Shown: piece by piece, positions 29,812 to 54,670 of the stretch
Numbering within the stretch: the stretch's first letter is position 1
Layout of the letters: every line of letters begins with the position of its first letter
Origin: Minisyncoccota bacterium
GTDB lineage: Bacteria; Patescibacteriota; Minisyncoccia; JBAYJV01
Direction: 5' to 3'
Length of the DNA stretch: 64,000 nucleotides
Assembly: GCA_041664925.1 (NCBI GenBank)
Contig: JBAYJV010000003.1
Location: 21,179-85,178 of the forward strand
The notes under the pieces: generated by a model
The model's database searches: none
Told to the model about the DNA's origin: nothing
The model's input: only the letters and a program-made list of their open reading frames with translations
Position numbers and translations under genes: made by a program

Positions 29812-30129
29812 ATGGATCACGCGAAAGCCAGCGAAGCGATTCGTTCTTTGGTCCAAGGAAAGCCGGCGCGCTTGCAGCTCATTTTCCGAAAGGGAAAAGA
29901 CTCGATCACGGGCCTGCGACGCCTGATGGTTCGGAAGGGCGAGTGGTTCACCTACGACGACATGACCGAGATGATCATTCTCGCGGTCGTCCAGTCGAAC
30001 GATTGGGACAATGACGAGAACCGAAAGGTCGTCATTGACATCCCGGTCGTCTGCTGGGAGTTCGTCAACTGGTTCTTGCAGAGCAGCGGGATCGTGAAAG
30101 ACCTCGAGAGCATCGCGGTGGTGCACTAG
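29812..30129 (+). CDS. cassette ORF, about 105 aa (MDHAKASEAIRSL...), GC-rich, paralog of 31248
   Basis: AAGGAGAGG RBS. About 85 percent identical to 31248..31562. Terminator at 30159-30189. Confidence 0.55.
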   Translation: MDHAKASEAIRSLVQGKPARLQLIFRKGKDSITGLRRLMVRKGEWFTYDDMTEMIILAVVQSNDWDNDENRKVVIDIPVVCWEFVNWFLQSSGIVKDLESIAVVH

Positions 30130-30158
30130 GCTTGAGTCTTCACGAGTACAAGTACGGT

Positions 30159-30189
30159 GGGCGGTCAGAGGATCGCCCATCTTTTTTTT
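30159..30189 (+). terminator. Cassette terminator type 1: GGGCGGTC-AGAG-GATCGCCCATC hairpin followed by a T8 run. Repeated at about 30892, 31589 and 32377
   Basis: Four nearly identical copies lie downstream of four different cassette ORFs. Confidence 0.75.
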
Positions 30190-30369
30190 ATTATGCCTAG
30201 GTCTTGGTGTTGAGGTTAGACCTCAATAGCCACCCTAATAACCAAGTTTTGTTTATTTTGTTATTTTTAGTAAGGAGAAAAGACAAAAAAACACCAAAAA
30301 GCTTGACTTTTTAATTAAATATAGTACAATTTGTGACAGAAGTAGATAAAACCAAAGAGGAGGAAAAAC

Positions 30370-30870
30370 ATGGAAACGCGCAATGTAAGGGTACTGATTT
30401 TTGAGAAGCAAGGATGCGTGAGTGGAGTATTCGAGATCATTCCGTTTGTCTACGATTCTAGCAATACAAGTGATGAAGACCTCAAGGCTTTTGTAAGGAG
30501 ACAGGTAATCGAGACAATTCGTTCACGCGGCAGTGATTTAAGTGAAAAAGGAGAATTGGATAAAGCTCGATTCTTCCGTCCTGCTGCAGTTGAGAAGCAG
30601 AAGATTTACAGACAACTTCCATATAAAGTTGGGGATTCTTATGTTATCATTGATGCGTTTGTTTCTCGCGGTTTCAATTTCAAGCTTGATTGTCCCTGTG
30701 TTTTTGTCGAAGTTTGTCAGTCGCGAATCAATGATAATGATTTTTGGGTGAATATTTATGATGTTGACGATGCACAAGTCCCAATCTGTGTGATTCTCGT
30801 AGAAGAATATGTTTTTATTGGACCAATCTCCGATGTTGGTGACAAAGAGAAAGTTTGCGCGGGAGCGTAA
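30370..30870 (+). CDS. cassette ORF, 166 aa, hypothetical
   Basis: Own promoter TTGACT-16-TACAAT at about 30303. AGAGGAGG RBS. Type-1 terminator at 30892. Confidence 0.5.
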   Translation: METRNVRVLIFEKQGCVSGVFEIIPFVYDSSNTSDEDLKAFVRRQVIETIRSRGSDLSEKGELDKARFFRPAAVEKQKIYRQLPYKVGDSYVIIDAFVSRGFNFKLDCPCVFVEVCQSRINDNDFWVNIYDVDDAQVPICVILVEEYVFIGPISDVGDKEKVCAGA

Positions 30871-31247
30871 ATCAATCGTTAGTGAAGTTTTGATGGGCGG
30901 TCAGAGGATCGCTCATCTTTTTTTATTACATTAATTTTTAACATGACAATGTGGGAGGCTCAGCCTCCCACATATTTCTTATTTAGATGTAATCCTTCGA
31001 CTTTGCTCAGGATATATCCTTCAATAGATTCAGGACAAGAAATTTTCTATATTTCATCATAATTCAACAAGAAAATCTAATAAAAAGCTTGCATTTTGGA
31101 GTGGAATGTGGTATAATGGTTGTTAAGAAGAGAGTTGTGTATGAGTTAGTCCTTCGACTGCGTCGCGTCAAACGCGACTCCGCTCAGGATGTAAGAGCTT
31201 CTAGATTCGATAGAAGCTCATCAAGAATCTCTAACAGGAGGAAGAAG

Positions 31248-31562
31248 ATGGATCACGCGAAAGCCAGCGAAGTGCTTCGTTCTTTAGCCCAAGGAAAGCC
31301 GGCGCGTTTGCAGCTCGTTTTTCGAAAAGGAAGGGACTCGATCACGGGCCTGCGGCGCCTGATGATGCGGAAGGGCAAGTGGTTCACCTACGACTACATA
31401 ACCGAGATAATCATTCTCGCGGTTCATGAGTCGAACGATTGGGACAATGACGAGAACCGAAATGTCGTCATCAACATCCCAGTCGTCTGCGGGGAGTTCA
31501 TCGAATGGTTCTTGCAGAGCGAGATCGTGAGGGACCTCGAGAGCATCGCAGTGGTGCACTAG
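31248..31562 (+). CDS. cassette ORF, about 104 aa, paralog of 29812 (MDHAKASEVLRSL...)
   Basis: Same promoter module at 31089. The leader carries an inserted GTAAGAG-type element. Type-1 terminator. Confidence 0.55.
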   Translation: MDHAKASEVLRSLAQGKPARLQLVFRKGRDSITGLRRLMMRKGKWFTYDYITEIIILAVHESNDWDNDENRNVVINIPVVCGEFIEWFLQSEIVRDLESIAVVH

Positions 31563-31711
31563 GCTCGAGTCTTTACGAGTACAAGTACGGTGGGCGGTCA
31601 GAGGATCGCTCATCTTTTTTTAAAAATATTAAAATTACCTAAAACTCTTGATTTTTGTAGCGATGTGTGGTATAATGAGTAGTAGGAATTTGGGACTAAG
31701 AAGGAGGAAAG

Positions 31712-32356
31712 ATGACAGATCGAAGAGTTGTGCAAACGGGAAGGTACCATGGAGAGTTGTTGGATGCTTTGACTTTCGTTGAGCAACTCAACGCAGGGGG
31801 GTGGGTTGCCTCGGCGGGTATACCATGGAAGCTTCAGGAGCTTCCGGTAACCAAAGCGTCGCTTAGCGGAGAGACATTGAAGATTGAAGTTGGAGGGCAC
31901 AGTTTTGAGCTTCCGAGCGATCGCATTCTCCTTGTCGATCCTTGGACTGTCAAGGTTCTTCATACAGTCATGCGGAGACAACAGCGCAAGATGATCGACG
32001 GTGGTGGTTGGCACGAAGTGCCTGGTATAGGGGTTGCTTTTAGTGTGCGGAATCCTGCACTTGAAGAGAGTATCCGCAGGGTTCGAGATGAGAAGGCTCG
32101 ACGCGAAGAAGAAGAGCGACAGCGCCGCGAAGCTGCAGAGCACGAAGCAAAGCGCCAGGAGTTTGTCGCGCGACTCACGCAAGACTTTGTTGGCAAGAAG
32201 CTGGCAAGAATCGATGTTGTCGGCGAAGATCTCCATCTCGAGTTCGATGATGGTTCTAAGTTGTCGATCGAGCTTGCCGGTGGAGATACATATGACGCGT
32301 GGATCGATGTGAACGGAATCTCACTTCATTGTTTCAAAGCCGACACTTATCGTTGA
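31712..32356 (+). CDS. cassette ORF, 214 aa, hypothetical, GC-rich with an Arg/Glu-rich helix
   Basis: Promoter TTGATT-17-TGTGGTATAAT at 31648. AAGGAGG RBS. Type-1 terminator. Confidence 0.5.
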   Translation: MTDRRVVQTGRYHGELLDALTFVEQLNAGGWVASAGIPWKLQELPVTKASLSGETLKIEVGGHSFELPSDRILLVDPWTVKVLHTVMRRQQRKMIDGGGWHEVPGIGVAFSVRNPALEESIRRVRDEKARREEEERQRREAAEHEAKRQEFVARLTQDFVGKKLARIDVVGEDLHLEFDDGSKLSIELAGGDTYDAWIDVNGISLHCFKADTYR

Positions 32357-32456
32357 GTTTTCGCAAATCAAAGTGGTGGGCGGTCAGAGGATCGCCCATC
32401 TTTTTTATGGCAAAAACACCATTTTGCTTGATTTTTGGAGTGAGGTGTGGTATAAT

Positions 32457-32594
32457 AGGGAGTGAGAAGAGAGTTGGGATTTATGCAATACCTCTTGGCA
32501 ATGATGTGGTTGGAATGTAAAAATTCTTACTAGATCGCTGCCAAGATGGTAGCTTCCGGTGAAGTACCGGAGAATCCCGAGATGGGAGGAAACC
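32457..32594 (+). ncRNA. Long conserved 5' leader of three cassettes (GGTTGGAA, ATTCTTACTA, three hairpins, GGGAGGAAAC RBS), candidate cis-regulatory RNA. Paralogous leaders at about 44210-44337 and 54752-54861
   Basis: Blocks are conserved across three loci. Paired positions show compensatory changes (GCTGTtgaaacgACAGC versus GCTGCCaagatGGTAGC, and CCGGTggagTACCGG versus CCGGTgaagTACCGG). Confidence 0.4.
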
Positions 32595-32996
32595 GTGACG
32601 CAAAGAAAGAGTGGACAAGAGATTCTTCTCTCTAAGTCAGTCTGTTTTGCCTTGGAAATGGTACGCATCTGCCTGTGGCAAGTGCCGACGGGAGTTTATC
32701 TTCTCAATGGACCATGGATGCAGATGAATATGGCGTCCAGCCTTATGGGGAACGAAAACCATGGATGTCGGCTTGTAACATTTTCAATTCTTGTCCATCC
32801 AAACACTCGCATCAGTGCTACCTGCAATGTTCGTTGTGTGAGTGGTGAATGGAGGACGGGTACGGTCGAGATCTGGCTGCTTGATGCCGAAGGCAAAAGG
32901 CGGGATGATAAGCGCTGGAAGTTCGATTGTCGATTCAACGAGAACGGCGATGGCGGGTGGAATATCCGTTGGTTGGATCCAATCAAGAGTCAGTAG
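32595..32996 (+). CDS. cassette ORF, about 133 aa with a GTG start, distant paralog of 44338 and 54862 (the C-terminus ...WNIRWLDPIKSQ matches ...WNPKWELVPLPKKSQ)
   Basis: The GTG directly follows GGGAGGAAACC, exactly analogous to GGGAGGAAAC-ATG at 44338. Type-2 terminator at 33008. Confidence 0.45.
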   Translation: MTQRKSGQEILLSKSVCFALEMVRICLWQVPTGVYLLNGPWMQMNMASSLMGNENHGCRLVTFSILVHPNTRISATCNVRCVSGEWRTGTVEIWLLDAEGKRRDDKRWKFDCRFNENGDGGWNIRWLDPIKSQ

Positions 32997-33007
32997 GAGT
33001 AAGAAGT

Positions 33008-33047
33008 GCGGCTCGGCGACAGAGGTTGCCGGGCCGTTTTTTTTGTC
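33008..33047 (+). terminator. Cassette terminator type 2: GCGGCTCGGCGAC-AGAG-GTTGCCGGGCCG hairpin followed by T8. Copies at about 38702 and 39178
   Basis: Three near-identical copies. Confidence 0.7.
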
Positions 33048-33303
33048 TAAAAAGGCAAAAAAAGTTTTTTATTTTAGGAGAAAATTAGATATAATGGCAT
33101 ATATAATGTAATTTCAAATTTTAAAATCCAAATTACAAACACGGGATTCTTCCCCTGTACCATACGGTACAGGGTCAGAATGACCCTCCTTCGCCCATCC
33201 TTCGTTAAAACTACGGATTGGCAAGCAAGACTACGGAAGGGCGAGGCAATAATTTCTGGATTTCTGCTTTCGCAGGAATGACACAATATATATAAATAAA
33301 ATT

Positions 33304-33810: not shown

Positions 33811-34126
33811 GATAGCTCTATGGCTCACATTGCGGGTTTGAATGGAGATTTCTATGGCTCAAATGGAAGAAATGAGCCATAGGGTGAGCCATTAAAAATA
33901 TAATAGAATATAGAAGTTAGAAGATAGAGGATAGAAGATAGAATAATTACAAACATCAAACATTAAATACGGGATGACATTTTTGTCCCCGGCGAGCCGG
34001 GGCCTCATAAAACCAATGATTCTCTCGCCTTTGGCGGATCATCAGGTTTTATGGGTTGTCCTCTTGTTATCTGGGGGCGTTTACTGGTAAAATAGGAACA
34101 GGTTTGCGTTTTGTTATTTACTTGAT

Positions 34127-34624: not shown

Positions 34625-34747
34625 TTTGTTTTGTTATATTAAATTAAAAAAATGATTAAATTAAAAAAAGCCAATCATGGCGCACGACCGGCATTAAGAA
34701 AAGCCCTTAAAAAGCACAAGAGAAAATAATATTAATTAAAATATATT

Positions 34748-35209: not shown

Positions 35210-35224
35210 TAATTAGGTATTTTT

Positions 35225-37648
35225 ATGGAGAAATTCTTTTTTGGAGCTGTTTTTGTGATTGTTATTGGCGCTTTGTTTTTTGCTGGGCGGATTATTTTCA
35301 AAAAAAGAAAGAAGGGACACCTGGGAAATCTCTTGGGAATGTCTCTTTTTTTAATTAGGCTACCGAAAAACGAAAGAAAACTTAAAGAGGGCGAGACGAG
35401 CAGGGATTTTCGCGAAAAAATTGGTGCGATTGAACAATTTTATGCGAGTTTTTCAGGTTTGACTCGCAAGGGATGGAAAAAGTTTATTTATGGGTTACCC
35501 AGAATAACAGTTGAGATAGCTAATACAATTCAACAAGAAGAAGTCGGTTTTTATATTTCTGTGCCAAAGGGACTCGAGGCTCAAGCCAAGAAACATCTTC
35601 AGGGAATTTATCCGGAAGCTGAAATCGATCGCTGCGAAAAAGATTATAATCCATTTGTTCCTCAAGGAGAATCGGCTGGAGGGTATTTTGTTTTGAGAAA
35701 AGATATTTTATTGCCCTTGAATACTTATACAAATCTCAAAATTGATCCATTAGCGCAAATCACCAATACGCTTAGCAATATTTTTCCAGAAGAAGGAGCG
35801 GCGGTTCAACTGGTGATCAGGCCAGCTAATAATAAATGGAATGAAAAAGCCAAAGAAGCGGTCAAACAACTAGGCGAAGGCAAGAAATTTTCGGATATAA
35901 AAAAAGGCATGAATATACCTGCTGGACTTGGAAGCGAATTTAAAAAACTTGTAACCATGGAGAATAAAGATGAAGAAGAAAAGGTTCAAAGAGTTGATGA
36001 GACTACTCTGGAATTGGTAAAGAATAAATCCCAAAAAACATTATTCGAAGCAAATATTAGAATTGTAGCATCATCACAAGATAAGATGTCTGTCAAGAGA
36101 ATTCTCGATGCTTTGGTCGCAGCTTTTGGTCAATATGATTTGAATCAGGGAAATTCTTTGGAATTTATCAATCTTAAGAAAAAACCATTGAAGCAGATGT
36201 TTTATAATTTTAGTCTGCGATTTTTTGATACGAAAAAAATAGTTATTTTGAATGCGGAAGAATTGGCAAGCATTTTTCATTTATCGATTGAAAATCTTAG
36301 AACGCCAAAGATAAAAACCCTAAAAACCGCGAAGGCGCCTATACCTGTCGAACTTCCCGATGCTGGACCAGTTATTTTGGGTGAGGCAACATTTAGAGAA
36401 GAAACGAAAAAAGTTTATTTTGCGACCGATAACGATCGCCGCAGACATTTTTATATTATTGGACAAACCGGTACTGGTAAAACATCTCTCTTAAAAGAAA
36501 TGATCCGTCAAGATATTGAGGCTGGTCGGGGCGTTGGTGTGGTTGATCCTCACGGAGATTTGATTGAAGATACGCTATCGAATATTCCGCTTCATCGCCG
36601 AGACGATGTCGTTCTATTTGAACCATTTAATACGGAAAATCCAGTGGGACTAAATATGCTTGAATATGACACAGAGGAACAAAAAGATTTTGCGGTTCAG
36701 GAAATGGTTGCGATTTTCCAAAAACTTTTCCCGCCAGAAATGATCGGGCCGATGTTCGAACATTATATGAGAAATGCGATGTTGGCGCTAATGGCTGACA
36801 AAGATGATCCGGGAACGCTAGTCGAAATTCCAAGAATCTTTACCGATGATTTATACATGGAAGAACGACTAGCTAAAGTTAAAGATTTGGTAGTGAGGCA
36901 ATTCTGGGAAAAAGAATGGAAGAAAACAACAGGACAAACCAGATCTGATATGCTTGGCTATGTTGTCTCCAAAGTTGGCCGATTTGTCGAAAATGCGATG
37001 ATGCGCAACATTATTGGTCAAGCGCATTCGGGTGTCAACTTGTCCGACATCATGGACAAAGGAAAAATCTTTCTGGCGAATCTTTCCAAAGGTCAAACTG
37101 GCGAGGTTAATAGTTCTTTGCTTGGACTTATTCTTGTCAGTAAATGTCAAATGGCAGCCATGAGGCGAGGCAATATTCCGGAAGATCAAAGACGAGATTT
37201 TTACTTGTATGCCGATGAGTTTCAAAACTTTACCACCGATTCAATTCCGACGATTTTATCAGAGGCTCGCAAATATAGACTCAATCTAATTTTATCTCAT
37301 CAATTTATTGCCCAACTTCAAGACAATATCAAAGACGCGGTCTTCGGGAATGTCGGCTCAATTTTATCGTTCAGAGTTGGCGTTGAGGACGGCGAGAGAT
37401 TGGAAAAGCAATTTGAGCCGGATTTTACAAGACAAGACATCATCAATCTGCCAAACTACGAGGCGATTATAAAACTGATGATTAATGGCCAAGTCAGCTC
37501 GTCTTTCCGCATGAAAACCACTGCGCCCAAGATTGGCGACAGAGCTCAAATCCAAGCAATTAAAGATATTTCAAAATTAAAATATGGAAGAAAAAAGGAA
37601 GAAGTTGAAAAAGATATTGCCAGGAGGGCAAAGTTAGGAAGTTTATAA
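35225..37648 (+). CDS. Membrane-anchored P-loop ATPase of the TraG/TraD/VirD4-like coupling-protein or AAA_10-like type
   Basis: N-terminal TM helix. Walker A IIGQTGTGKTSLL. Walker-B-like LYADEFQNF. 807 aa. Confidence 0.5.
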   Translation: MEKFFFGAVFVIVIGALFFAGRIIFKKRKKGHLGNLLGMSLFLIRLPKNERKLKEGETSRDFREKIGAIEQFYASFSGLTRKGWKKFIYGLPRITVEIANTIQQEEVGFYISVPKGLEAQAKKHLQGIYPEAEIDRCEKDYNPFVPQGESAGGYFVLRKDILLPLNTYTNLKIDPLAQITNTLSNIFPEEGAAVQLVIRPANNKWNEKAKEAVKQLGEGKKFSDIKKGMNIPAGLGSEFKKLVTMENKDEEEKVQRVDETTLELVKNKSQKTLFEANIRIVASSQDKMSVKRILDALVAAFGQYDLNQGNSLEFINLKKKPLKQMFYNFSLRFFDTKKIVILNAEELASIFHLSIENLRTPKIKTLKTAKAPIPVELPDAGPVILGEATFREETKKVYFATDNDRRRHFYIIGQTGTGKTSLLKEMIRQDIEAGRGVGVVDPHGDLIEDTLSNIPLHRRDDVVLFEPFNTENPVGLNMLEYDTEEQKDFAVQEMVAIFQKLFPPEMIGPMFEHYMRNAMLALMADKDDPGTLVEIPRIFTDDLYMEERLAKVKDLVVRQFWEKEWKKTTGQTRSDMLGYVVSKVGRFVENAMMRNIIGQAHSGVNLSDIMDKGKIFLANLSKGQTGEVNSSLLGLILVSKCQMAAMRRGNIPEDQRRDFYLYADEFQNFTTDSIPTILSEARKYRLNLILSHQFIAQLQDNIKDAVFGNVGSILSFRVGVEDGERLEKQFEPDFTRQDIINLPNYEAIIKLMINGQVSSSFRMKTTAPKIGDRAQIQAIKDISKLKYGRKKEEVEKDIARRAKLGSL

Positions 37649-38367: not shown

Positions 38368-38877
38368 TTCGTCCTCCTTGTTTTGACGAAAAGAACTTAC
38401 TATAACACTAGCATACAAACATCCCTTTGTCAATACTTATATCGATATATCGGAGGCTAAGCCTTCGATTTTTTTGTTAAAAAGAATAAAATTACCCAAA
38501 ACCCTTGCATTTTAATATTAATTGTGGTATAATAGGTAATGAAAGAAGGTTAGGGTTCAGCAACTCAAAAGTACTCAAACATCAAGCAAGAAGGAGGAAG
38601 TACGAAAGCACTAAAATGGGTTCTGATTATCGGCGGCATTGTGGGATTGATCTTCGGAGTTGGTTGCGCATTACTATGGATGGGTGTAGGCGGATAAGAA
38701 GTGCGGTCTGGCGACAGAGGTTGCCGGGCCGTTTTTTTATTAAAATCTGTCGAGGACGGTCCTAGACAGTTTTTATACCCAAAACACTTGCATTTTAGAT
38801 TAAGGTGTGGTATAATAGATAATGAAAGAAGGTTAGGGTTTTCACTCAAAAGCGCTCAAAGAAGGAGGAAGAGAGAA

Positions 38878-39171
38878 ATGATAAAGGCGACCGTTGATCT
38901 TCACGGTTTTGGTGCTAGAGGCAATAATGCAGAGATCATGGCTCAGCAGATTTTCGACGAGTTCGGCGACGATCTCAGGAAGAGTGTGATCGTGGTGCCA
39001 TGCGAATCGCAGCCTCTCAAAGAGGACATGTTCGCAGAGCCATTCGTCAGGGTCTTTGCTGACAGTCCCGAGACTGCGTCAAAGATCAAGAAAGCAATCG
39101 GGCGAGTGAATTTCAAACTCAGCGTTCAGGTGGTGTCCGCTGATTCTGAGTTCTACTCAGCGAGCGATTAG
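38878..39171 (+). CDS. cassette ORF, 97 aa, acidic (MIKATVDLHGFGARG...)
   Basis: Promoter module at 38788. AAGGAGGAAG RBS. Type-2 terminator at 39178. Confidence 0.5.
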   Translation: MIKATVDLHGFGARGNNAEIMAQQIFDEFGDDLRKSVIVVPCESQPLKEDMFAEPFVRVFADSPETASKIKKAIGRVNFKLSVQVVSADSEFYSASD

Positions 39172-39214
39172 TGGAAGTGCGGTCCGGCGACAGAGGTTGC
39201 CGGGCCGTTTTTTT

Positions 39215-40307: not shown

Positions 40308-40336
40308 AATTTATCGAAGTCCGACTTCGATAAATT
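40308..40336. repeat. Palindrome AAATTTATCGAAGTCCGACTTCGATAAATT. Inverted-identical copy at about 41165-41194 on the other side of RAYT copy 2
   Basis: Seen directly. Confidence 0.85.
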
Positions 40337-40427
40337 TTAACAAAAAACATCAAATTTTCCTATGATTTTAAATATGCTTTATGCTAAAATTAACCTTATT
40401 GTATTATTATAGTTAAATAAACTAATT

Positions 40428-41132
40428 ATGAAAAGGCCAGAATTTTTTTGTAATAAAATATATCATATTTATAACCGCGGCGTTGATAAGAGAAATATAT
40501 TTTTAGACGACATTGATAGATTTCGTTTTATTCACGATTTATTTGAATTCAATGATATTAATCCGGTATTTAATGCTGGTTATAATTTTAGAAACAAATC
40601 TATTGAAGTCGGACTTCAATATATTGATAATAAAAATAAACCGAGAAAATTATTGGTTGAGATTTTGGCTTTTTGTTTAATGCCGAATCATTTTCACTTA
40701 CTTTTGAGACAGAGAAAAGAGAATGGAATTACTGAATTTATGAGAAAATTAGGAACCGGTTATACCAATTATTTTAATCAAAAATATACAAGATCTGGCG
40801 TCTTGTTTCAGGGTAAATTTAAAGCTTTACTAATAGAAAAAGAAACTCATTTTATATATCTTCCACATTATATCCATACAAATCCACTAGACCTGACAGA
40901 TGCTAAGTGGCGACAAGATGGTATTTCAGGCTTAAATAAAATATTAAAGTTTTTAGAAGAATACCGTTGGAGCAGTTTACCCGATTATTTAAATAAGAAA
41001 AATTTTCCTTCAATTACTCAGCGTAATTTTCTTTTAGAAATTTTCGGAGGAGAGAAACAATACAAAAAAGATTTAACAGATATTATAAAAAATGGAAATT
41101 TTGAGGAAATAAAAGATTTAGTTTTTGAATAG
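40428..41132 (+). CDS. IS200/RAYT-like HuH tyrosine-transposase-like protein, copy 2
   Basis: YHIYNRG, PNHFHLLL (HuH), SGVLFQGKFKA and YIHTNPLD motifs. Confidence 0.75.
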   Translation: MKRPEFFCNKIYHIYNRGVDKRNIFLDDIDRFRFIHDLFEFNDINPVFNAGYNFRNKSIEVGLQYIDNKNKPRKLLVEILAFCLMPNHFHLLLRQRKENGITEFMRKLGTGYTNYFNQKYTRSGVLFQGKFKALLIEKETHFIYLPHYIHTNPLDLTDAKWRQDGISGLNKILKFLEEYRWSSLPDYLNKKNFPSITQRNFLLEIFGGEKQYKKDLTDIIKNGNFEEIKDLVFE

Positions 41133-41266
41133 CTCTTGAATATTTAATAACAAAGTTATTACTAAATTTATCGAAGTCCGACTTCGATAAATTAGTTTTT
41201 TTACTAGACTAGCTCATTCTTTCTTTTTTTTTGACAAAGAAATCTTATCTGGTAACATTGTTGTAT

Positions 41267-43121: not shown

Positions 43122-43475
43122 AATTTTATAATAAATCATAAAGAACTAGCAGTAATTGCTAGTTTTTTATTGAAAAAAATTCATACTTGCCCTTCCGAAG
43201 CCTTGGCGTAGGAGGGCTTGTCCGTCCGAAGTCCCGGCTCGCCGGGACGAAGGAGGGTCATTCTGACCCCGGCAAGCCGGGGGAAGAATCTCTGAATTAT
43301 AGCTTTGAATTTTAAGTTATGGTTTTCCTGCCTGCCGGTAGGCATGGGAGTTTTGCGCTTTGAATTTTGATTTTTCACTCAAACTCTTGCATTTTATGCT
43401 TAATTGTGATATAATAGGTAATGAAAGAAGAGTTAGGGTTTCGTCAAACACACAAGCGAAAGAAGGAGGAAGAGA

Positions 43476-44027
43476 ATGGAGCGTTCGGTTTTCATGAAAG
43501 ATGGCGGAAATTGGGTTTGCACAAGTGGGCCGGACGAGATGTTTGTTTCTTCTGCGGTTCGGTCGGTTTTGACAGCTTTCTCAACTTCGGCGATAAATCT
43601 TGTTCGCACTTCAGACGGCGATCTGGTGATCGAGACTGAGGGTTGGGATGTTGTTCGTCGAAACAAGGTGATTTATCGAGGAGCATATCATGGGTTTTTC
43701 GATCTACAGAATGTCGGCGAAGTTGTCGCGGAATTGAAGGAGGCTTTGTTCTCACGATCTGTTCAGATCGGTGTTCTTGAGAGCTCAGAGATCAATGATC
43801 TCGTTTTCGATTTCATATCGAGGTTTCTTGACAGCCCGGAAAACGACATCGAGAAGAAGTTCAAAGCGGTTCTCGTCGTGATCCACGGAGGCGCGAGGAC
43901 GCGAGAAGAAGTCGAGCGTCTTGTCGAGCTTGAGTGGTGGAAGCTTCTGGCTGCGGTTCAACTTGCTCGTTCGGAGCAGATGAGCGCAGTCGAAGTTCTC
44001 GACCTTCTCGAACCAGTCGCCGCTTAG
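43476..44027 (+). CDS. cassette ORF, 183 aa, paralog of 54128
   Basis: Promoter module at 43387. AAGGAGG RBS. Conserved C-terminus AVEVLDLLEPVAA. Type-3 terminator. Confidence 0.55.
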   Translation: MERSVFMKDGGNWVCTSGPDEMFVSSAVRSVLTAFSTSAINLVRTSDGDLVIETEGWDVVRRNKVIYRGAYHGFFDLQNVGEVVAELKEALFSRSVQIGVLESSEINDLVFDFISRFLDSPENDIEKKFKAVLVVIHGGARTREEVERLVELEWWKLLAAVQLARSEQMSAVEVLDLLEPVAA

Positions 44028-44061
44028 GAGAGCGGTTCGTACTGGTAGAATTGGTGGATCC

Positions 44062-44096
44062 GTCCCGGTAGAAGTTTACCGGGACGTTTTTTTTAT
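44062..44096 (+). terminator. Cassette terminator type 3: conserved GCTTAGGAGAGCGG block, then a GTCCCGGTA-GAAGTT-TACCGGGAC hairpin and a T-run. Copies at about 44829 and (variant) 54681
   Basis: Three copies. The stop codon is embedded in the conserved GCTTAGGAGAGCGG block. Confidence 0.7.
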
Positions 44097-44337
44097 TTCT
44101 GTCATTCTGAATGGTTCGACAAGCTCACCATAAATTCCACGAAGAATCTCATGTTTTACAATTGATTTTCATCAAATCCATTGCATTTTACACTTAATTG
44201 TGGTATAATAGATGATAAGAGAAGAGTTTGGGGTTTTCTTTCAATAGCGACTTGGTTGGAAATTTATTCTTACTAATTCGCTGTTGAAACGACAGCCTTC
44301 GGTGGAGTACCGGAGAAATCCCGAAACGGGAGGAAAC

Positions 44338-44784
44338 ATGTCAAAAAAGATTACACTCACGAACACAACGGCGTTGGCACTGCAGATGGCGCAGGCATGC
44401 GCTGTACGTGCGTATGGCGAGTTGGAGAATCGTTTGTTCCTGCACTCGGAATACGATCCAATGGATTTTGTCTGGCAGGATGGCAATGGTGAAAGGATTG
44501 TTGACGGATCAATATGGTTCTATCCCCAGGACAGTGTTTCCATTAACTTCAAGTGTACTCTTAACTACGAGTACAGGAAGTTCACAGAAGCAACAGTTGT
44601 GATTAGGAGATGGGAGAAAGAAGACAAGAAGTTCATTTGTACCATTGAGGCCGGTGAGTTGCGGGTAGTTGACTGCAACGCCGAAGCTAAGAAGACTGAA
44701 GAAGTACCTGTTTCTCGTGGATTCTGGCGATCACTCGCCGATTTCTTCACGAGAAAACATGGTGCGAAGAAACTCTCGGTCTAG
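44338..44784 (+). CDS. cassette ORF, 148 aa (MSKKITL...), behind the long structured leader
   Basis: The ATG directly follows GGGAGGAAAC. Type-3 terminator. Confidence 0.5.
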   Translation: MSKKITLTNTTALALQMAQACAVRAYGELENRLFLHSEYDPMDFVWQDGNGERIVDGSIWFYPQDSVSINFKCTLNYEYRKFTEATVVIRRWEKEDKKFICTIEAGELRVVDCNAEAKKTEEVPVSRGFWRSLADFFTRKHGAKKLSV

Positions 44785-45110
44785 TCACTGCTTAGGAGAG
44801 CGGTTCGTCCCGGTAGAATTGGCGGACCCGTCCCGGTAGAAGTTTACCGGGACGCTTTTTTTATTGAAATTTATGTCATTCTTGCGAAGGCAGGAATCCA
44901 GTAACAATAAACAAAAACCGTCTAGGACCGTCCCGATAAAATAAATCCTCGACAGTTTTTGACATATGTGGGAGGCTGAGCCTCCCACATATGTCAGGGA
45001 AAATGGTATTGAGGTCAAACCTCAACACTTTCTTAATCTTATTTTGCTCGTCCTGCTTGGTTCGGTGGATTCGATAAACTCACCACAAACAAGCTCACCA
45101 TAAACTCCAC

Positions 45111-45316
45111 GAAGGAACTTGTCCTGAGAGAAGTCGAAGGAACTTGTCCTGAGAGAAGTCGAAGGAACTTGTCCTGAGAGAAGTCGAAGGAACTTGTCCT
45201 GAGAGAAGTCGAAGGAACTTGTCCTGAGCGAAGTCGAAGGAACTTGTCCTGAGCGAAGTCGAAGGAACTTGTCCTGAGCGAAGTCGAAGGAACTTGTCCT
45301 GAGCGGAGTCGAAGGA
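45111..45316. repeat. Tandem array of 8 units of 25 bp (GAAGGAACTTGTCCTGAGAGAAGTC), the reverse complement of the dispersed CCTTCGACTTCKCTCAGGACAAG motif
   Basis: Seen directly. The overlapping minus-strand ORFs in the track are judged repeat artefacts. Confidence 0.8.
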
Positions 45317-45449
45317 TTGACTTTTCTCCATTAAGCATATACACTAAAATTAGTTCTTCAAAAAGTCCGCCTACGCCTTTTGGCTACGGCGAGACGTAAG
45401 AGCTTGTAAATTCGCAGGCTCATCAACAATCTCTAACGGAGGCGATACA

Positions 45450-45878
45450 ATGGCAGGAGGATCTCAGTTTGCGTTTGCGATAATATTAGGCATTTTCAGT
45501 GTTTTCTCATTTGTTGGTCATGTATTGATTCTGGGAATCGTCTTGGCAGTTTTGGCGGTTTTGATGATTATAAGGGGAATAAGAATATCGTCTGTAGTTC
45601 TTAGCGGCGATCATCCCGAAAGAAGAAAAGACGAAGTTTTTACAGGCAATGTCTATACTGACGATTTTGATGATCTTAGAGGGCTATATGGCTCAGGAGT
45701 TCGTTTCGGAGGGGTAGCCTATACTACTGACGGGGAATCGCTTGCCGGTACGCGCTTACGTCCTTGTTTCAGGACTATTGAATCTGTTGAAGCATTTGAA
45801 AAGAGACGAGCAACAGAAGAAACAGAAGCAATCATGAGAACCTTACGAGATGGTGGCGGACACGTGATTATCGCATAA
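45450..45878 (+). CDS. hypothetical membrane protein
   Basis: Two N-terminal TM helices. RBS ACGGAGG, which is part of the conserved leader. Confidence 0.4.
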   Translation: MAGGSQFAFAIILGIFSVFSFVGHVLILGIVLAVLAVLMIIRGIRISSVVLSGDHPERRKDEVFTGNVYTDDFDDLRGLYGSGVRFGGVAYTTDGESLAGTRLRPCFRTIESVEAFEKRRATEETEAIMRTLRDGGGHVIIA

Positions 45879-47165: not shown

Positions 47166-47173
47166 GGAGGAAA

Positions 47174-50211: not shown

Positions 50212-50227
50212 GATGTAAATTAAAAAC

Positions 50228-53200: not shown

Positions 53201-53428
53201 ACCGCCCGGCGCAACATAAGCCTCAACGCCAATAATCGGTTTGATGTTTCGAGCCTTGGCTTTTTGATAGAACTCAATAGCGCCGTACATGACGCCATGA
53301 TCAGTCAGCGCAATTGCTTCCATTCCATCTTTTTCGCATTTATCGAGAATTTCATCAATCTTGGAAAGCCCATCAAGCAAGGAATAATGGGAGTGGACAT
53401 GCAAATGTGTAAACAAAGATTTCGCCAT
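50228..53428 (-). CDS. dnaE: DNA polymerase III alpha subunit
   Basis: N-terminal PHP domain HLHVHSHYSLLDG. 1066 aa. The whole length is polIII-alpha-like. Confidence 0.9.
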   Translation of the reverse strand: MAKSLFTHLHVHSHYSLLDGLSKIDEILDKCEKDGMEAIALTDHGVMYGAIEFYQKAKARNIKPIIGVEAYVAPGGMKNKQSKSDALNYHLTLLAKNEKGYKNLLKLTTLAHLEGFYYRPRVDYDLLENYSEGVIALSGCLSGHIPKTILSGKIDEAKKIILRMKEIFKKGDFYLELQHHPGLEEQEIVNKAMAKLAKELDVQIVATQDSHYINPDDALAQDILVAVQTGNKVYDEDRMTMKNYDFSLKSPEEMTKSFKDYPSSIETTQDIAKKCDVKLDLETIHLPKFDLPEGETDLLLYLRKLVDVGIKKRLKKEADTKVVKDRINYEFSIIEKTGYASYFLIVQDFINWAKNNGIVVGPGRGSAAGSLVSYALNITDVNPLEYDLMFERFLSPDRISMPDIDIDFTDMRRDEVIEYARQRYGQDRVAQIITFGTMASRMAIRDVGRALGISYSFCDQIAKMIPFGYSLKQSLEEVTELRDLCEKDENAKKLIKYAKKLEGVVRHASTHACGVVITEDPLSNFTPLQYASQSDKTIVTQYEMHAVESLGLLKMDFLGLKNLTVIENTLKIVKATRGQRIKVSDIPLDDDKAFKLLRDGKTIGIFQLESGGMTRYLKQLKPTEMEDIIAMVALYRPGPMELIPSFIRRKHGLEAPEYIHPKLKKGLERTYGIIVYQEQIIQLAQELGGLTYTEADQLRKAVGKKIEKLLAAQEKKLIEGMIKNGIDKNIARQIWQFIKPFARYGFNRSHAACYAHIAYETAYLKAHFPAEFMAALMTSESANIDRIAKLVDATRDMGIEVLPPDINESWENFTIVKPEKENSSPNKIRFGLTAIKNVGDHLIDAMIQERKTDGPYKNIEDFIERVNHKDLNKKSLESLIKAGVLDSFESRSTLLGNVENILKIAKENQKNKANGQTSLFSGQDVKDLNLKLKKYPDVDGQETLRWEKELLGLYVSSHPLEKYRKTLEKKTFPIDNIDTSFGFNGSTQKIGGIISSIKRVVTKKGDQMVFVELEDLTGKIEVIVFPKMLRRDPSIWVEDKIILVEGKIDTRSDVAKMICEKVQELK

Positions 53429-53738
53429 AGCCTACAGGGTTAAAAAAGTTTAAAGTTTAAAGTGAAAAGTTCAAAATTACAGTGTAAAATTTAAAATCAT
53501 AAATTCTTCCAACATTTTGCACTTTTCCATCTTCCGCCAAGGTTCTCCGACATTTTGTCGGAGGTTCTTCCTTTTAACTTTTCACTTCCTTTCTATTCTA
53601 AACTTTTTTATACTAACTTCAATTGGGGATAAGTGTCAAAATTCCACAAAACTCTTGCATTTTACACAATATTGTGCTATAATGTATAGTGAAAGAAAGG
53701 TTAGGGTTTTCGGTTTGAAAATACGCTAAGGAGGCAAA

Positions 53739-54131
53739 GTGAAAGACGGCAAAGTTGTGATTCTTGTCGTGGATGACAGTTTTCCCGACTGGAAACACGA
53801 ATGGGAACATGAGCTTCCCGATGGCGTTGAGGTCGTTTCGACTATGGAGCTTGAGGAAGGCAGGAGGCTTTTCCAGGAGCGCAAGAACGAAATCGACATC
53901 ATCGTCATTGATTATCAGGTCATCGGCGGAACGACGCCGGATCTGATTCGTGAAATCAAAGCATCGGGATTTAAGGGAGTGGTAATTGGCGTGTCTTACA
54001 CGACAATTCAACCGCTCATCGACGCTGGTTGCGATTACACTTGTGACCGCAAGTGTCTGTTCCACGATCGTGAACTTAACATCTTCGGTCACCTCGAGGA
54101 AGAAATCGCGAAAGCGAGGAGGGCGGAATGA
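53739..54131 (+). CDS. stand-alone receiver (REC/CheY-like) domain protein, GTG start
   Basis: ILVVDD acidic pocket. IIVIDYQ places a candidate phospho-Asp. Transcribed from cassette promoter module 53655. Translationally coupled (ATGA) to the next ORF. Confidence 0.5.
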   Translation: MKDGKVVILVVDDSFPDWKHEWEHELPDGVEVVSTMELEEGRRLFQERKNEIDIIVIDYQVIGGTTPDLIREIKASGFKGVVIGVSYTTIQPLIDAGCDYTCDRKCLFHDRELNIFGHLEEEIAKARRAE

Positions 54132-54670
54132 GGGTTACGTTCTTGAGGCAAAGAAAAGGTATACAGATGGAGACTGTCAGAGGAGCCGACAGTATCGGTT
54201 CCTACGATGTCGTAAGGAGAATTGTGGAACTCCTGGAAAGTTCGGCAACGAACTTGATCAGGGCGGGTAAAGACAATCTATTCCTCTACTCCTACGATAC
54301 CGTCACGGATGAACCAGTTTGTGATGTGTACCATGGATTTTTCGATAGTGATCGTAGATACTTACTCATCATTCTTCTGTATCAGGAATTGGACAGGAGA
54401 TTGAGAGATAAAAATCTCAATGGGTTTGAGGAGGGATTCGTCGGTGTTTACATGCCGGGACTTCTCGATAATCCAGAGATTAGTATCGAAACAAAGTTCA
54501 AGACGGTTGCTGCCGTTCTCTATGGCGGGGCGCGGCGACGAAGTGATGTCGAGCGTCTCATGGAGAAGGATTGGAAGGATCTCATCGCGGCGATCCGAAT
54601 CGCTCAGAGTGAGGGAATCGGCGCGGTCGAGGTTCTCAATTTCATCGAACAACAACCAGTTGCCGCTTAG
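54128..54670 (+). CDS. cassette ORF, 180 aa, paralog of 43476
   Basis: The shared C-terminus AVEVLNFIEQQPVAA matches AVEVLDLLEPVAA. Type-3-like terminator at 54681. Confidence 0.5.
   Translation: MRVTFLRQRKGIQMETVRGADSIGSYDVVRRIVELLESSATNLIRAGKDNLFLYSYDTVTDEPVCDVYHGFFDSDRRYLLIILLYQELDRRLRDKNLNGFEEGFVGVYMPGLLDNPEISIETKFKTVAAVLYGGARRRSDVERLMEKDWKDLIAAIRIAQSEGIGAVEVLNFIEQQPVAA

What the first reader, a model, noticed from the sequence alone, without database searches (positions are those of the whole stretch)
29812..54670. GC-rich payloads and rapidly diverging paralogs inside the cassettes
Cassette ORFs such as 29812..30129, 31712..32356, 38878..39171, 43476..44027 and 53739..54670 are visibly GC- and Arg/Glu-rich, with runs like gcgcgcttgcagctc and gacgaagaagagcgacagcgccgcgaagctgcag. 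Neighbouring core genes are about 30-35 percent GC. Paralog pairs keep their termini but are scrambled internally: MERSVFMK...AVEVLDLLEPVAA against METVRGAD...AVEVLNFIEQQPVAA, and ...WNIRWLDPIKSQ against ...WNPKWELVPLPKKSQ. This looks like horizontally acquired or diversifying-selection cargo placed behind a native promoter. A two-gene unit of REC domain plus partner (53739..54670) suggests a signalling role for at least one family.
Basis: partly seen in the sequence, partly recalled or inferred. Interest (0 to 1): 0.55.

Follow-up and report, generated by a model that had tools for sequence, protein, structure and literature searches.

The report
GC-rich orphan gene cassettes, CPR bacterium
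A small, AT-rich bacterium of the Candidate Phyla Radiation carries about a dozen tiny stand-alone gene units, each with near-identical "on" and "off" signals around an unrelated, GC-rich, fast-evolving gene of unknown function; the units look imported and are reshuffled between close relatives, much like a system known from T4-like viruses.

Summary
The compositional observation is real. Nine payload ORFs have GC 0.47-0.56 and GC3 0.48-0.81. Sixteen core genes have GC 0.37±0.02 and GC3 0.30±0.04, and no 300-nt core chunk exceeds GC3 0.46.

The window is chromosome of a Candidatus Paceibacterota (CPR) MAG. Eleven copies of one promoter (TTGCATTTT-N9-TGTGGTATAAT; 0.01 expected by chance) sit upstream of small orphan ORFs. 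All are on the + strand. Most have a conserved leader and a strong Shine-Dalgarno, and most end in one of three shared terminators.

The payloads are true genes: dN/dS is below 1 and one family gives a confident AlphaFold model. They have no Pfam, PHROG, PADLOC, PDB or viral relatives. One family has only 7 members among 1.84 billion representative proteins.

Against a syntenic relative, core proteins are 85-97% identical and cassette proteins 50-73%. Cassette dN is about 3-20 times higher, with dN/dS 0.19-0.47. That means relaxed purifying selection; gene-wide positive selection is not shown.

Cassette content differs between the relatives, with breakpoints at the shared flanks. Polarised changes run GC to AT (12 against 3).

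Best reading: horizontally acquired, slowly ameliorating accessory genes shuffled through composite terminator-promoter modules. This works like the PeSLs and morons of phages, but sits in a cellular chromosome. "Scrambled" paralogs and a signalling role are only weakly supported.

The parts
29694..29811 (+). 5' expression module of cassette c1 (A-rich upstream tract, -35 TTGCAT, extended -10 TGTGGTATAAT at 29716-29744, purine-rich leader, SD)
   Evidence: (D4, D12). Positions 29694-29745 are 100% identical to 31067-31118.
29812..30129 (+). c1, a 105-aa orphan ORF and the most GC-rich payload (GC .563, GC3 .81)
   Evidence: The family has only 4 members. All are GC3 .69-.81.
30156..30187 (+). 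Shared terminator type 1 (GGTGGGCGGTCAGAGGATCGCCCATC + T-run). Other copies lie at 30892-30923, 31589-31620 and 32375-32406, after the unrelated ORFs c2, c3 and c4.
   Evidence: (D17, 94-100% identity)
30370..30870 (+). c2, a 166-aa orphan ORF with native-like GC (.41). It has its own promoter at 30303-30330 and a type-1 terminator.
31067..31562 (+). c3 cassette: the same promoter as c1, a different leader element (31140-31247), and ORF 31248-31562 (104 aa, 81% identical to c1)
   Evidence: D9, D12, D16; dN/dS 0.47
31648..32356 (+). c4 cassette: promoter 31648-31676 and ORF 31712-32356 (214 aa; beta-rich N domain, 45-residue Arg/Glu-rich helix, small beta C domain)
32428..33037 (+). c5 cassette: promoter 32428-32456, three-hairpin leader 32484-32594, ORF 32595-32996 (GTG start, 133 aa), type-2 terminator 33008-33037
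38505..38732 (+). c6: promoter 38505-38533 plus a remnant without a start codon (ATG changed to ACG; 38602-38697, one TM helix) of the relative's 172-aa gene, then type-2 terminator 38703-38732
38788..39208 (+). c7 cassette: promoter 38788-38816, ORF 38878-39171 (97 aa, GC .507), type-2 terminator 39179-39208. There is no counterpart in the relative.
43387..44094 (+). c8 cassette: promoter 43387-43415, ORF 43476-44027 (183 aa; PAS/longin-like alpha/beta N domain plus six-helix C domain), type-3 terminator 44061-44086
44181..44862 (+). c9 cassette: promoter 44181-44209, three-hairpin leader 44236-44337, ORF 44338-44784 (148 aa), type-3 terminator 44829-44854. The 3' module (44774-44865) is 89% identical to the one after c8 and includes relics of c8's last codons.
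   Evidence: (D20)
53655..54131 (+). c10: promoter 53655-53683 and ORF 53739-54131 (130 aa), a divergent stand-alone receiver-like (REC) domain. The gene is absent from the relative.
54128..54713 (+). c11: ORF 54128-54670 (180 aa, c8 family). Its start overlaps the c10 stop (ATGA). Terminator hairpin 54682-54706 plus T-run.
54724..55328 (+). c12 cassette: variant promoter 54724-54751, three-hairpin leader 54757-54861, ORF 54862-55287 (141 aa, native-like GC .37), terminator about 55298-55328
45340..45878 (+). c13: second leader type (45340-45449) plus a 142-aa membrane ORF. GC3 (.32) and rate are native-like (87% identical to the relative, dN/dS 0.14). It serves as an internal contrast to the GC-rich payloads.

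Best explanation
The region is chromosome of a Candidatus Paceibacterota (CPR) bacterium. Self-contained mini transcription units are interspersed among conserved housekeeping genes.

Each unit has three parts:
- a portable 5' module: an A-rich upstream tract, -35 TTGCAT, extended -10 TGTGGTATAAT, a conserved purine-rich leader or a structured leader, and a strong Shine-Dalgarno;
- one small orphan protein gene (in one case two coupled genes);
- one of three shared intrinsic terminators.

A terminator and the next promoter often lie 11-50 nt apart, forming composite terminator-promoter junctions.

Inferred steps:
- The payloads were acquired horizontally from an unsampled, GC-richer gene pool, most likely mobile DNA circulating among CPR bacteria.
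- They are now drifting toward the host's AT-richness.
- They are kept under weak purifying selection as accessory genes.
- The near-identical flanks serve as ready-made expression signals. They also serve as homology arms through which units are duplicated, replaced, truncated and lost.

This is the mechanism proposed for PeSL elements in the hyperplastic regions of T4-like phages, and it resembles phage morons.

The biochemical roles are unknown. My guess is dispensable interaction or conflict functions, with one genome-specific pairing of a CheY-like receiver and a PAS-like/helical protein.
For: SHOWN
- Organism and chromosomal context.
- Promoter: 11 copies, all on the + strand, against 0.01 expected. 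Copies found by my own looser pattern scan.
- Shared 5' and 3' modules around unrelated ORFs: (D4, D12, D17, D20).
- Composition: payload GC3 .48-.81 against core .30±.04.
- Coding status: GC3>GC1>GC2 in the most GC-rich payloads, dN/dS below 1, AlphaFold pLDDT 84 for c8 from only 4 sequences.
- Extreme phyletic restriction:
  - 3, 4 and 9 word-index hits for three families among 5.8 billion proteins;
  - 7 members of the c8 family among 1.84 billion representatives with a full profile search.
- Rates against the syntenic relative: core proteins 85-97% identical with dN .02-.08; cassette proteins 50-73% identical with dN .19-.43.
- Content flux at the flanks:
  - c6 is a start-less relic and c7 is a replacement;
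  - REC is present here only;
  - the relative has an extra c8-like copy after thyX;
  - another relative has an extra 152-aa GC-rich ORF before its c1 homologue;
  - c9's 3' flank retains c8's terminal codons.
- Direction of change in c1/c3, polarised with two outgroups: GC to AT 12, AT to GC 3; at third positions 9 against 1.
- c4 homologues in two other CPR genome contexts (one annotated Magasanikbacteria, one unnamed assembly) are likewise solitary. Each has its own extended -10 promoter and terminator and is GC-elevated over its neighbours.
- The PeSL description matches: a stem-loop just upstream of an AT-rich tract, a sigma70-like promoter and SD, lying next to ORFans that differ between close relatives (PMC4122927).
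Against: - No donor or vehicle was found. IMG/VR, INPHARED, PLSDB, PHROGs and BFVD gave nothing convincing.
- Orthologous cassettes at syntenic loci are GC-rich in both species, although core dS is about 0.5-1.2. Either the acquisitions are old and only partly ameliorated, or something maintains the GC.
- The polarised-substitution test rests on 15 changes in one family.
- Recombination through the flanks is inferred from breakpoints in two or three genomes. It was not observed.
- Promoter and terminator activity are sequence predictions only.
- No functional evidence exists for any payload.
Confidence: 0.55

Rival explanations
1. The cassettes are native, lineage-specific young genes rather than imports. 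Their high GC3 is created or maintained in place. One route is GC-biased gene conversion at loci that recombine often through their repeated flanks. Another is selection on mRNA or codon properties of very strongly expressed small genes.
For: - No donor was found anywhere.
- Syntenic orthologues stay GC-rich in both species despite dS near 1.
- The units with the clearest recent duplication or conversion (c1/c3, with 100% identical promoters) have the highest GC3.
- The c4 family is GC-elevated in three different genomic backgrounds.
- An association between recombination and GC3 in bacteria is established knowledge (biased gene conversion hypothesis; my own knowledge, not tested here).
Against: - Polarised c1/c3 changes are 12 GC-to-AT against 3 AT-to-GC. 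This is decay, not build-up.
- Cassette ORFs behind the same kinds of flanks can be fully AT-rich (c2, c12, c13). Strong expression signals or flank recombination therefore do not by themselves give high GC3.
- NCG-rich codon usage in c1 (9.5% of codons against 3.5% in core) looks like the signature of a different genome.
Confidence: 0.2
2. The main driver is diversifying (positive) selection in an arms race with phages, hosts or competitors. This would make the payloads rapidly evolving conflict proteins.
For: - dN is about 3-20 times that of core genes.
- dN/dS is raised to 0.19-0.47 against 0.02-0.15 in core genes.
- Variability is concentrated in the N-terminal domain of the c8 family, while the C-terminal helices stay conserved.
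- Copy number and content change rapidly between relatives.
Against: - Every gene-wide dN/dS is below 1 and fits relaxed constraint.
- dS is near saturation.
- There are no hits to defence or anti-defence profiles (PADLOC, PHROGs).
- One cassette is already a pseudogene, which fits dispensability.
Confidence: 0.12
3. The cassettes are decayed remnants of an integrated prophage, an integrative conjugative element or an integron-type array.
For: - A TrwB/VirD4-like ATPase lies at 35225-37648.
- IS200-like Y1 transposases lie at 40428 and 55442.
- The tandem array c1-c5 is reminiscent of a cassette array.
Against: - The units are scattered singly or in small groups between housekeeping genes whose order is conserved in the relative.
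- The TrwB-like gene is among the most conserved genes (97% identity, dN/dS .02).
- No integrase, capsid, terminase or relaxase matches were found among the roughly 60 predicted proteins scanned against Pfam (most ORFs of 85 aa or more).
- Each unit has its own promoter and a plain terminator, not a promoterless ORF followed by attC.
- There are no matches in phage or plasmid collections.
Confidence: 0.06
4. The GC-rich stretches are not protein genes. They would be structured RNAs, or spurious ORFs that arise because stop codons are rare in GC-rich DNA.
For: - Long antisense ORFs overlap several payloads, for example 29788-30180(-), 31610-32236(-) and 53619-54092(-).
- There is no protein-family match for any payload.
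Against: - Codon-position GC is strongly asymmetric on the + strand (c1.55/.33/.81).
- Consensus SD and start-codon spacing are present.
- Reading frames are conserved in relatives, with dN/dS .19-.47.
- AlphaFold models are confident.
- There are no Rfam hits at the gathering thresholds for the whole window, nor at E up to 10 in the one leader stretch scanned.
Confidence: 0.03

Closest known systems
PeSL (promoter-early stem-loop) composite terminator/promoter elements of T4-like phages (Arbiol et al. 2010; Comeau, Arbiol & Krisch 2014, PMC4122927)
   Same: - Repeated, well-conserved intergenic modules made of a stem-loop, an AT-rich tract, a near-consensus sigma70-type promoter and an SD.
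- They flank small ORFans.
- They sit in plastic segments between conserved core genes.
- Insertions, deletions and ORF replacements between close relatives have breakpoints at the modules.
- Homologous recombination between modules is the proposed mechanism (searches compared).
   Different: - This case is in a cellular CPR chromosome and not a T4-like phage. There are no phage genes nearby.
- The module has an extended -10 and a conserved transcribed leader.
- The terminators form three sequence classes.
- The payloads are strongly GC-shifted relative to the genome.
Phage 'morons' (an independent promoter-gene-terminator unit inserted between prophage genes, typically of deviant composition; my own knowledge of Hendrix/Juhala et al. 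2000)
   Same: Autonomous transcription units, with one small accessory gene per unit, base composition different from the neighbours, and presence or absence varying between relatives.
   Different: The units are not in a prophage. They share near-identical promoters and terminators with each other, which morons generally do not.
Putative mobile promoters / promoter reuse in prokaryotes (Nijveen, Matus-Garcia & van Passel 2012, PMC3575422)
   Same: Highly similar promoter sequences occur upstream of non-homologous genes within one genome (abstract seen).
   Different: The terminator is shared as well. The promoter is tied to a specific class of orphan, compositionally foreign genes. Payload exchange at the same locus is seen between relatives.
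Integron gene cassettes
   Same: Arrays of small, mostly orphan, compositionally diverse ORFs bounded by repeated hairpin-forming elements. Content varies between strains.
   Different: - No intI was found in the window.
- The hairpins are short G+C stems followed by T-runs. They are intrinsic terminators and not attC sites.
- Every unit has its own promoter, whereas integron cassettes are typically promoterless.
Single-domain response regulators (CheY-like REC, PF00072), for c10 only
   Same: The length is about 130 aa. By eye the protein has an acidic DD pair (LVVDD), a candidate phospho-acceptor Asp (IIVID), a Ser at the Thr87 position (GVSYT) and a Lys (DRKC). Weak matches to REC structures and profiles were found.
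   Different: The score is below Pfam's gathering threshold. No histidine kinase is in the window. The gene is missing in the closest relative.

Membership tests
PeSL-type composite terminator/promoter shuffling modules | Composite motif: a stem-loop just upstream of an AT-rich tract, a sigma70-like -35/-10 promoter, an SD and a start codon | tested here: met
   Terminator-to-next-promoter gaps are 28 nt (31620 to 31648), 22 nt (32406 to 32428), 50 nt (38738 to 38788), 11 nt (54713 to 54724) and 36 nt (38469 to 38505). The promoter is TTGCAT-N17-TATAAT with TGTG upstream, and the SD is AAGGAGG.
PeSL-type composite terminator/promoter shuffling modules | Many highly similar copies within one genome | tested here: met
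   There are 11 promoter copies (0.01 expected by chance) and terminator classes with 4, 3 and 2 copies at 89-100% identity.
PeSL-type composite terminator/promoter shuffling modules | Association with ORFans and with indels or replacements between closely related genomes | tested here: met
   Every ORF directly downstream of the 11 promoter copies that was scanned lacks a significant family match (c10's REC match is below threshold; the small ORFs after the 12991 and 38505 promoters were not scanned). The c6/c7 replacement, the REC insertion and the c8 copy-number change are seen against the relative.
PeSL-type composite terminator/promoter shuffling modules | Located in hyperplastic regions of a T4-like phage genome | tested here: not met
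   The context is a bacterial chromosome with AsnRS/AspRS, ThrRS, DnaE, SHMT, ThyX, MiaA, ComEC and HrcA. No phage-family hits were found.
Phage moron | Autonomous unit with its own promoter and terminator, and composition deviating from the neighbours | tested here: met
   (sequence-level prediction only)
Phage moron | Inserted between genes of a prophage | tested here: not met
   The neighbours are housekeeping genes in conserved synteny.
Integron cassette array | An adjacent intI tyrosine recombinase with attI and Pc | tested here: not met
   No integrase-family Pfam hit was found among the roughly 60 predicted proteins scanned (most ORFs of 85 aa or more).
Integron cassette array | Promoterless ORFs, each followed by an attC recombination site | tested here: not met
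   Each unit has its own promoter. The 3' hairpins are 24-30-nt G+C stems with T-runs. No dedicated attC model was available, so absence of attC rests on inspection.
Horizontally acquired genes (compositional and phyletic criteria) | Codon and base composition outside the range of the resident genome | tested here: met
   GC3 is .48-.81 against a core maximum of .46 in 300-nt chunks. NCG codon and Arg/Lys usage are shifted.
Horizontally acquired genes (compositional and phyletic criteria) | Patchy distribution that conflicts with vertical descent | tested here: inconclusive
   The families have 3-9 members. The c4 family is present in Paceibacterota and in a Magasanikbacteria MAG. There are too few sequences for a phylogenetic test.
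Horizontally acquired genes (compositional and phyletic criteria) | An identifiable donor or vehicle | tested here: not met
   No relatives were found in viral, phage or plasmid collections or outside this clade.
Genes under diversifying selection | dN/dS above 1 (gene-wide or at a class of sites) | tested here: not met
   Gene-wide Nei-Gojobori dN/dS is 0.19-0.47. Site models were not run because there is too little DNA and dS is about 1 or more.
Response regulator receiver domain (PF00072), c10 | Profile match above the curated threshold, with conserved phospho-acceptor pocket | tested here: inconclusive
   Pfam gives 15.6 bits against a cut-off of 30.2 (E .018). PDB 3jte gives E 2.5e-4 over residues 8-75. 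Pocket residues appear present by inspection. No structure model was made.
Any Rfam family, for the c5/c9/c12 leader | Covariance-model match | tested here: not met
   No hits were found at the gathering thresholds for the whole window. Only chance-level hits appeared at E up to 10 on 44150-44400.

The most novel reading that the evidence does not exclude
The conserved promoter/leader and terminator modules may form an integrase-free capture-and-express platform of CPR bacteria. Foreign ORFs from an unsampled GC-rich mobilome, or from the organisms these episymbionts live on, would be slotted between ready-made expression signals by homologous recombination and tried out. This would be a cellular counterpart of phage PeSL shuffling. 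One subclass would be controlled by a previously undescribed three-hairpin leader RNA that occludes the ribosome-binding site.
Probability: 0.15. Interest if true: 0.75.

Novelty: new variant of a known kind. Interest (0 to 1): 0.45.

Why it matters
CPR/Patescibacteria have tiny genomes, and most lineage-specific genes in them are unannotatable. How they acquire and test new genes is poorly understood.

This window shows a concrete architecture for that process. Orphan, compositionally foreign genes sit in standardised promoter-terminator units. Those units are exchanged between close relatives at the shared flanks.

If the pattern is general, three things would follow:
- a mechanism so far described for T4-like phages would extend to cellular genomes;
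- a simple sequence signature (the module) would be available for finding the accessory genes of these organisms;
- strong native promoters, leaders and terminators would be available for future CPR genetics.

The payload proteins and the structured leader are new families without any functional annotation.

Tried and rejected
PROTEIN AND STRUCTURE SEARCHES
- Pfam, PHROGs, NCBIfam and PADLOC on all payloads gave nothing above threshold.
- Foldseek of the c8 and c4 models against PDB, and of c8 against BFVD, gave no convincing match. The best were a LOV-kinase chimera (E 1.9e-3, TM .22) and an uncharacterised Ralstonia phage RP12 protein (E 1.3e-4, TM .33).

VIRAL, PHAGE AND PLASMID COLLECTIONS
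- IMG/VR scans with the c8 and c4 family alignments and with the promoter-leader pattern gave nothing.
- INPHARED blastn and tblastn, and PLSDB tblastn, gave nothing.

PATTERN SCANS
- GTDB species representatives were scanned for the leader hairpin and for the promoter-leader pattern. Neither matched.
- The metagenome scan for the hairpin found only the known relative plus one chance match in a TARA scaffold.
- My first local promoter pattern used the wrong spacer length and found nothing. It was corrected.
- Rfam gave no family for the leaders.

REJECTED READINGS
- Integron: no intI or attC, and each unit has its own promoter.
- Prophage or ICE remnant: housekeeping synteny is conserved.
- Diversity-generating retroelement: no reverse transcriptase, and variability is not at the C-terminus.
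- 'Scrambled' paralogs: c8 and c11 align end to end.
- c5/c9/c12 as demonstrable protein paralogs: BLASTP is not significant.

Full report
WHAT THE WINDOW IS

The window is part of a 327-kb metagenomic contig (JGI 3300037810, Ga0376277_0000246). NCBI annotates it as a Candidatus Paceibacterota (Parcubacteria/CPR) MAG.

It is cellular chromosome. It encodes a class II Asp/Asn-type tRNA synthetase, ThrRS, DnaE, SHMT, ThyX, MiaA, ComEC, an FeFe-hydrogenase, a ZIP transporter, HrcA and two tRNAs.

CHECKING THE OBSERVATION

I computed GC by codon position for all plausible genes.

- Sixteen core genes average GC .370 (sd .021, range .326-.401) and GC3 .301 (sd .036).
- Among 127 in-frame 300-nt chunks of those genes, the highest GC3 is .46.
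- Payloads c1, c3, c4, c5, c7, c8, c9, c10 and c11 have GC .47-.56 and GC3 .48-.81. Every one is outside the core range.
- The shift is concentrated at third positions (c1: GC1 .55, GC2 .33, GC3 .81). It is therefore a codon-usage difference and not an amino-acid effect.
- NCG codons are over-used, and Arg replaces Lys.

Some details need correcting.
- Core genes are 33-40% GC and not 30-35%.
- Glu is not generally enriched.
- Three ORFs in cassette-type units (c2, c12, c13) are compositionally native.
- A further mildly GC-rich block lies outside the finding at 14.9-18.4 kb.

THE CASSETTE ARCHITECTURE

One promoter, TTG[C/A][A/T]TTTT-N9-TGTGNTATAAT, occurs 11 times. It has a near-consensus -35, a 17-nt spacer and an extended -10. 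All copies are on the + strand, and 0.01 are expected from shuffles. Nine of the eleven lie inside the finding's range. The module is also conserved upstream of the promoter (an A-rich tract).

Downstream of the promoter comes a leader.
- In most copies it opens with a conserved purine-rich stretch (...RTGAAAGAAGGTTAGGGTT...) and ends in a strong AAGGAGG Shine-Dalgarno (D4/D12).
- Three units instead carry a structured three-hairpin leader.
- Several others carry a second repeated leader element.

At the 3' end, unrelated ORFs share terminators.
- GGTGGGCGGTCAGAGGATCGCCCATC-Tn follows c1, c2, c3 and c4 (94-100% identical).
- GCGGYYYGGCGACAGAGGTTGCCGGGCCGT-Tn follows c5, c6 and c7.
- A 92-nt 3' module follows both c8 and c9 (89% identical). 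After c9 it still contains relics of c8's last codons.

A terminator and the next promoter are often only 11-50 nt apart. They form composite terminator-promoter junctions.

ARE THE PAYLOADS GENES, AND WHAT ARE THEY?

They are protein-coding.
- They have the right SD-to-start spacing, and the most GC-rich payloads show the coding pattern GC3>GC1>GC2.
- Their reading frames are conserved in relatives, with dN/dS below 1.
- The c8 family gives a confident AlphaFold model from only four sequences (pLDDT 84, pTM .79). It shows a beta-beta-alpha-beta-beta-beta N-terminal domain followed by six helices.
- The c4 family gives pLDDT 78. It shows a beta-rich N domain, one 45-residue Arg/Glu-rich helix and a small beta C domain.

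None of the payloads matches a Pfam, PHROG, NCBIfam or PADLOC family above threshold. Foldseek against PDB and BFVD gave nothing convincing. The c8 N-domain resembles PAS/LOV/longin folds only at E of 2e-3 or worse and TM about .2.

The families are tiny.
- The word-indexed search of 5.8 billion proteins found 3 hits for c8, 4 for c1 and 9 for c4.
- An exhaustive HMMER profile search of 1.84 billion representatives found only seven c8-family members, all 173-184 aa.
- No relatives were found in IMG/VR, INPHARED or PLSDB.

COMPARISON WITH A SYNTENIC RELATIVE

A 68.9-kb contig (ENA ERZ27250602 k141_1740524) carries the same gene order from the TrwB-like ATPase to DnaE. A JGI contig carries it as well.

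- Core proteins are 85-97% identical, with dN .02-.08 and dN/dS .02-.15.
- Cassette proteins are 50-73% identical, with dN .19-.43 and dN/dS .19-.39.
- The in-genome duplicates c1/c3 give dN/dS .47.

The payloads therefore evolve about 3-20 times faster at non-synonymous sites. Every gene-wide ratio stays below 1, which is what relaxed constraint predicts. It does not demonstrate diversifying selection. dS is near saturation, so site-level tests were not possible. The relative's cassettes are GC-rich too (GC3 .54-.60 against .25-.37 for its core genes).

TURNOVER AT THE FLANKS

- Between the 169-aa gene and miaA, the relative has promoter, then a 172-aa GC-rich membrane protein, then terminator. 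The window has promoter, then a 31-codon relic of that gene whose ATG has become ACG (c6), then terminator, then a second copy of the promoter, then an unrelated ORF (c7), then the same terminator.
- Upstream of c11, the relative's promoter and SD lead directly into the c11 orthologue. The window has the 130-aa REC-like gene inserted there. Its stop overlaps the c11 start (ATGA).
- After thyX, the relative has an extra c8-like gene.
- Another relative has an extra 152-aa GC-rich ORF before its c1 homologue.
- The c1 and c3 promoters are 52/52 identical while their ORFs are 89% identical. This points to gene conversion or very recent duplication.

The evidence fits recombination through the shared modules. 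That mechanism is an inference from breakpoints and was not observed.

ORIGIN OF THE GC-RICHNESS

Two outgroup homologues were used to polarise the c1/c3 differences. This gave 12 GC-to-AT changes against 3 AT-to-GC changes, and 9 against 1 at third positions. At compositional equilibrium the two counts should be equal, so these genes are decaying toward AT.

GC3 also grades across the cassettes:
- c1 and c3: .81 and .74;
- most others: about .5-.6;
- c2, c12 and c13: .32-.35.

Homologues of c4 in two other CPR genome contexts (one annotated Magasanikbacteria) are likewise solitary, carry their own promoter and terminator, and are GC-elevated over their neighbours.

Together this favours import from a GC-richer pool followed by amelioration. 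No donor was identified. Persistence of high GC3 in both species leaves room for local maintenance, such as biased gene conversion.

THE TWO 'PARALOG PAIRS' AND THE REC UNIT

- c8 and c11 are genuine homologues: 37% identity, E 9e-29, aligned end to end. In a nine-member alignment the C-terminal half is the conserved part and the N-terminal domain is variable. Nothing is scrambled.
- c5, c9 and c12 are not significantly similar as proteins.
- They do share a leader RNA. It has a 21-bp hairpin whose invariant inner arms (GGTTGGAA and TTCTTACT) pair through conserved G-U wobbles, so the structure works only on the sense RNA.
- The outer stem of that hairpin shows 5-6 compensatory pairs.
- A second hairpin follows, and then a third that occludes part of the GGGAGG ribosome-binding site. 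Folding z-scores are -3.7 to -6.7.
- This leader matches no Rfam family. Outside this window the pattern scans found it only in the known relative.
- c10 is plausibly a divergent CheY-like receiver. It is absent in the relative, and none of the other c8-family genes whose upstream context was seen has a REC neighbour.

COMPARISON WITH KNOWN SYSTEMS

The closest described mechanism is the PeSL of T4-like phages. It is a composite of a stem-loop, an AT-rich tract, a sigma70-like promoter and an SD. PeSLs are repeated in hyperplastic regions, lie next to ORFans that differ between closely related phages, and are proposed to mediate modular shuffling by recombination (PMC4122927).

Three of the four defining features are met here. 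The fourth, a T4-like phage genome, is not. This works like PeSLs but is not a member of that family.

- It also resembles phage morons (autonomous units of deviant composition) without being in a prophage.
- It is an instance of promoter reuse (PMC3575422).
- Integron, prophage/ICE and DGR readings were rejected on missing defining parts.

VERDICT

Diversifying selection and a signalling role are unproven. The architecture is a new variant of a known kind: PeSL/moron-like units in a CPR chromosome. Payload functions remain unknown. Interest is moderate at 0.45. It would rise if module-mediated gene capture or the leader RNA were validated experimentally.

Noticed in passing
window 32484-32594, 44236-44337, 54757-54861; also L002 10786-10884: A conserved three-hairpin 5' leader lies upstream of three ORFs (c5, c9, c12) that are barely related as proteins. 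It has a 21-bp first hairpin with invariant GGTTGGAA and TTCTTACT arms paired through G-U wobbles, plus 5-6 compensatory pairs in the outer stem. The last hairpin overlaps the SD. Folding z-scores are -3.7 to -6.7. No Rfam family matches. This is a candidate new cis-regulatory RNA.
   Followed up: partly
window 40308-41193 and 55359-56133: Two IS200-like Y1 transposase genes (40428-41132 and 55442-56125) are each bracketed by their own palindromic repeat. The first is AATTTATCGAAGTCCGACTTCGATAAATT, with 100% identical copies at 40308 and 41165. The second is ATATGTGGGAGGCTSAGCCTCCCACATAT, with 7 copies in the window. This looks like two REP/RAYT systems. Several REP copies sit at cassette boundaries (29196, 30929, 44946, 55359).
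   Followed up: partly
window 13040-13182, 13296-13400, 31140-31252, 45340-45454: A second repeated leader element has four copies. It consists of a GC-rich hairpin, then GTAAGAG..TTCTA, a small hairpin, and AAGAATCTCTAACAGGAGG. It supplies the Shine-Dalgarno for small ORFs, including c3 and c13. SD-less relatives appear to lie at about 14160 and about 30990.
   Followed up: partly
window 12991-13520: Another unit with the same promoter lies outside the finding's range. It carries two tiny ORFs: a 39-aa acidic peptide (MKEVCNYHETVPAEV...) and a roughly 37-aa single-TM peptide. About 1.4 kb downstream lies a mildly GC-rich block (14900-18422, GC .45-.48) encoding a radical SAM/SPASM enzyme, a TPM-domain protein and LemA. 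A possible peptide-maturation context was not examined.
   Followed up: no
window 1050-1445: The eleventh promoter copy (one mismatch) drives a 67-aa ORF (1123-1326) with two CxxC pairs, like a zinc ribbon. GC is about .45, and the unit has its own terminator.
   Followed up: no
window 45060-45334: A tandem array of about 9 copies of a 25-nt unit (CGAAGGAACTTGTCCTGAGAGAAGT) lies just upstream of the c13 leader. Related 'CCTTCGACTTCGCTCAGGRC' motifs recur at 30990, 31150, 46706 and 60955-62644.
   Followed up: no
window 60867-61776: A dense region of degenerate repeats (GGCAA(T/C)AA...GGCGAGC units; spacings are multiples of 12 nt), with GC .43-.46 and no long ORF on either strand. Its nature is unknown.
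   Followed up: no
window 26054-27169, inside ORF 24643-27183: Ten copies of a 63-nt (21-aa) periodic repeat lie inside an 846-aa protein with no Pfam match. It is followed by a C39-like peptidase gene (27205-27978).
   Followed up: no
window 42459-43121 compared with L002 7486-8952: The thyX gene differs between the two relatives. It is 220 aa here and 488 aa in the relative. The two show no tblastn similarity at E below 1e-3, although both hit Pfam Thy1, and nucleotide homology stops at 42480. This may be a non-orthologous replacement right next to a cassette hotspot.
   Followed up: no
window 5314-5451, 7931-7997, 10689-10879, 11248-11331, 12097-12172, 21851-22015, 53435-53501: A/T-rich intergenic blocks are built from degenerate AAAGTGAAAAGT/AAAATTAAAA units on either strand. 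They mostly lie between divergently or convergently arranged core genes.
   Followed up: no
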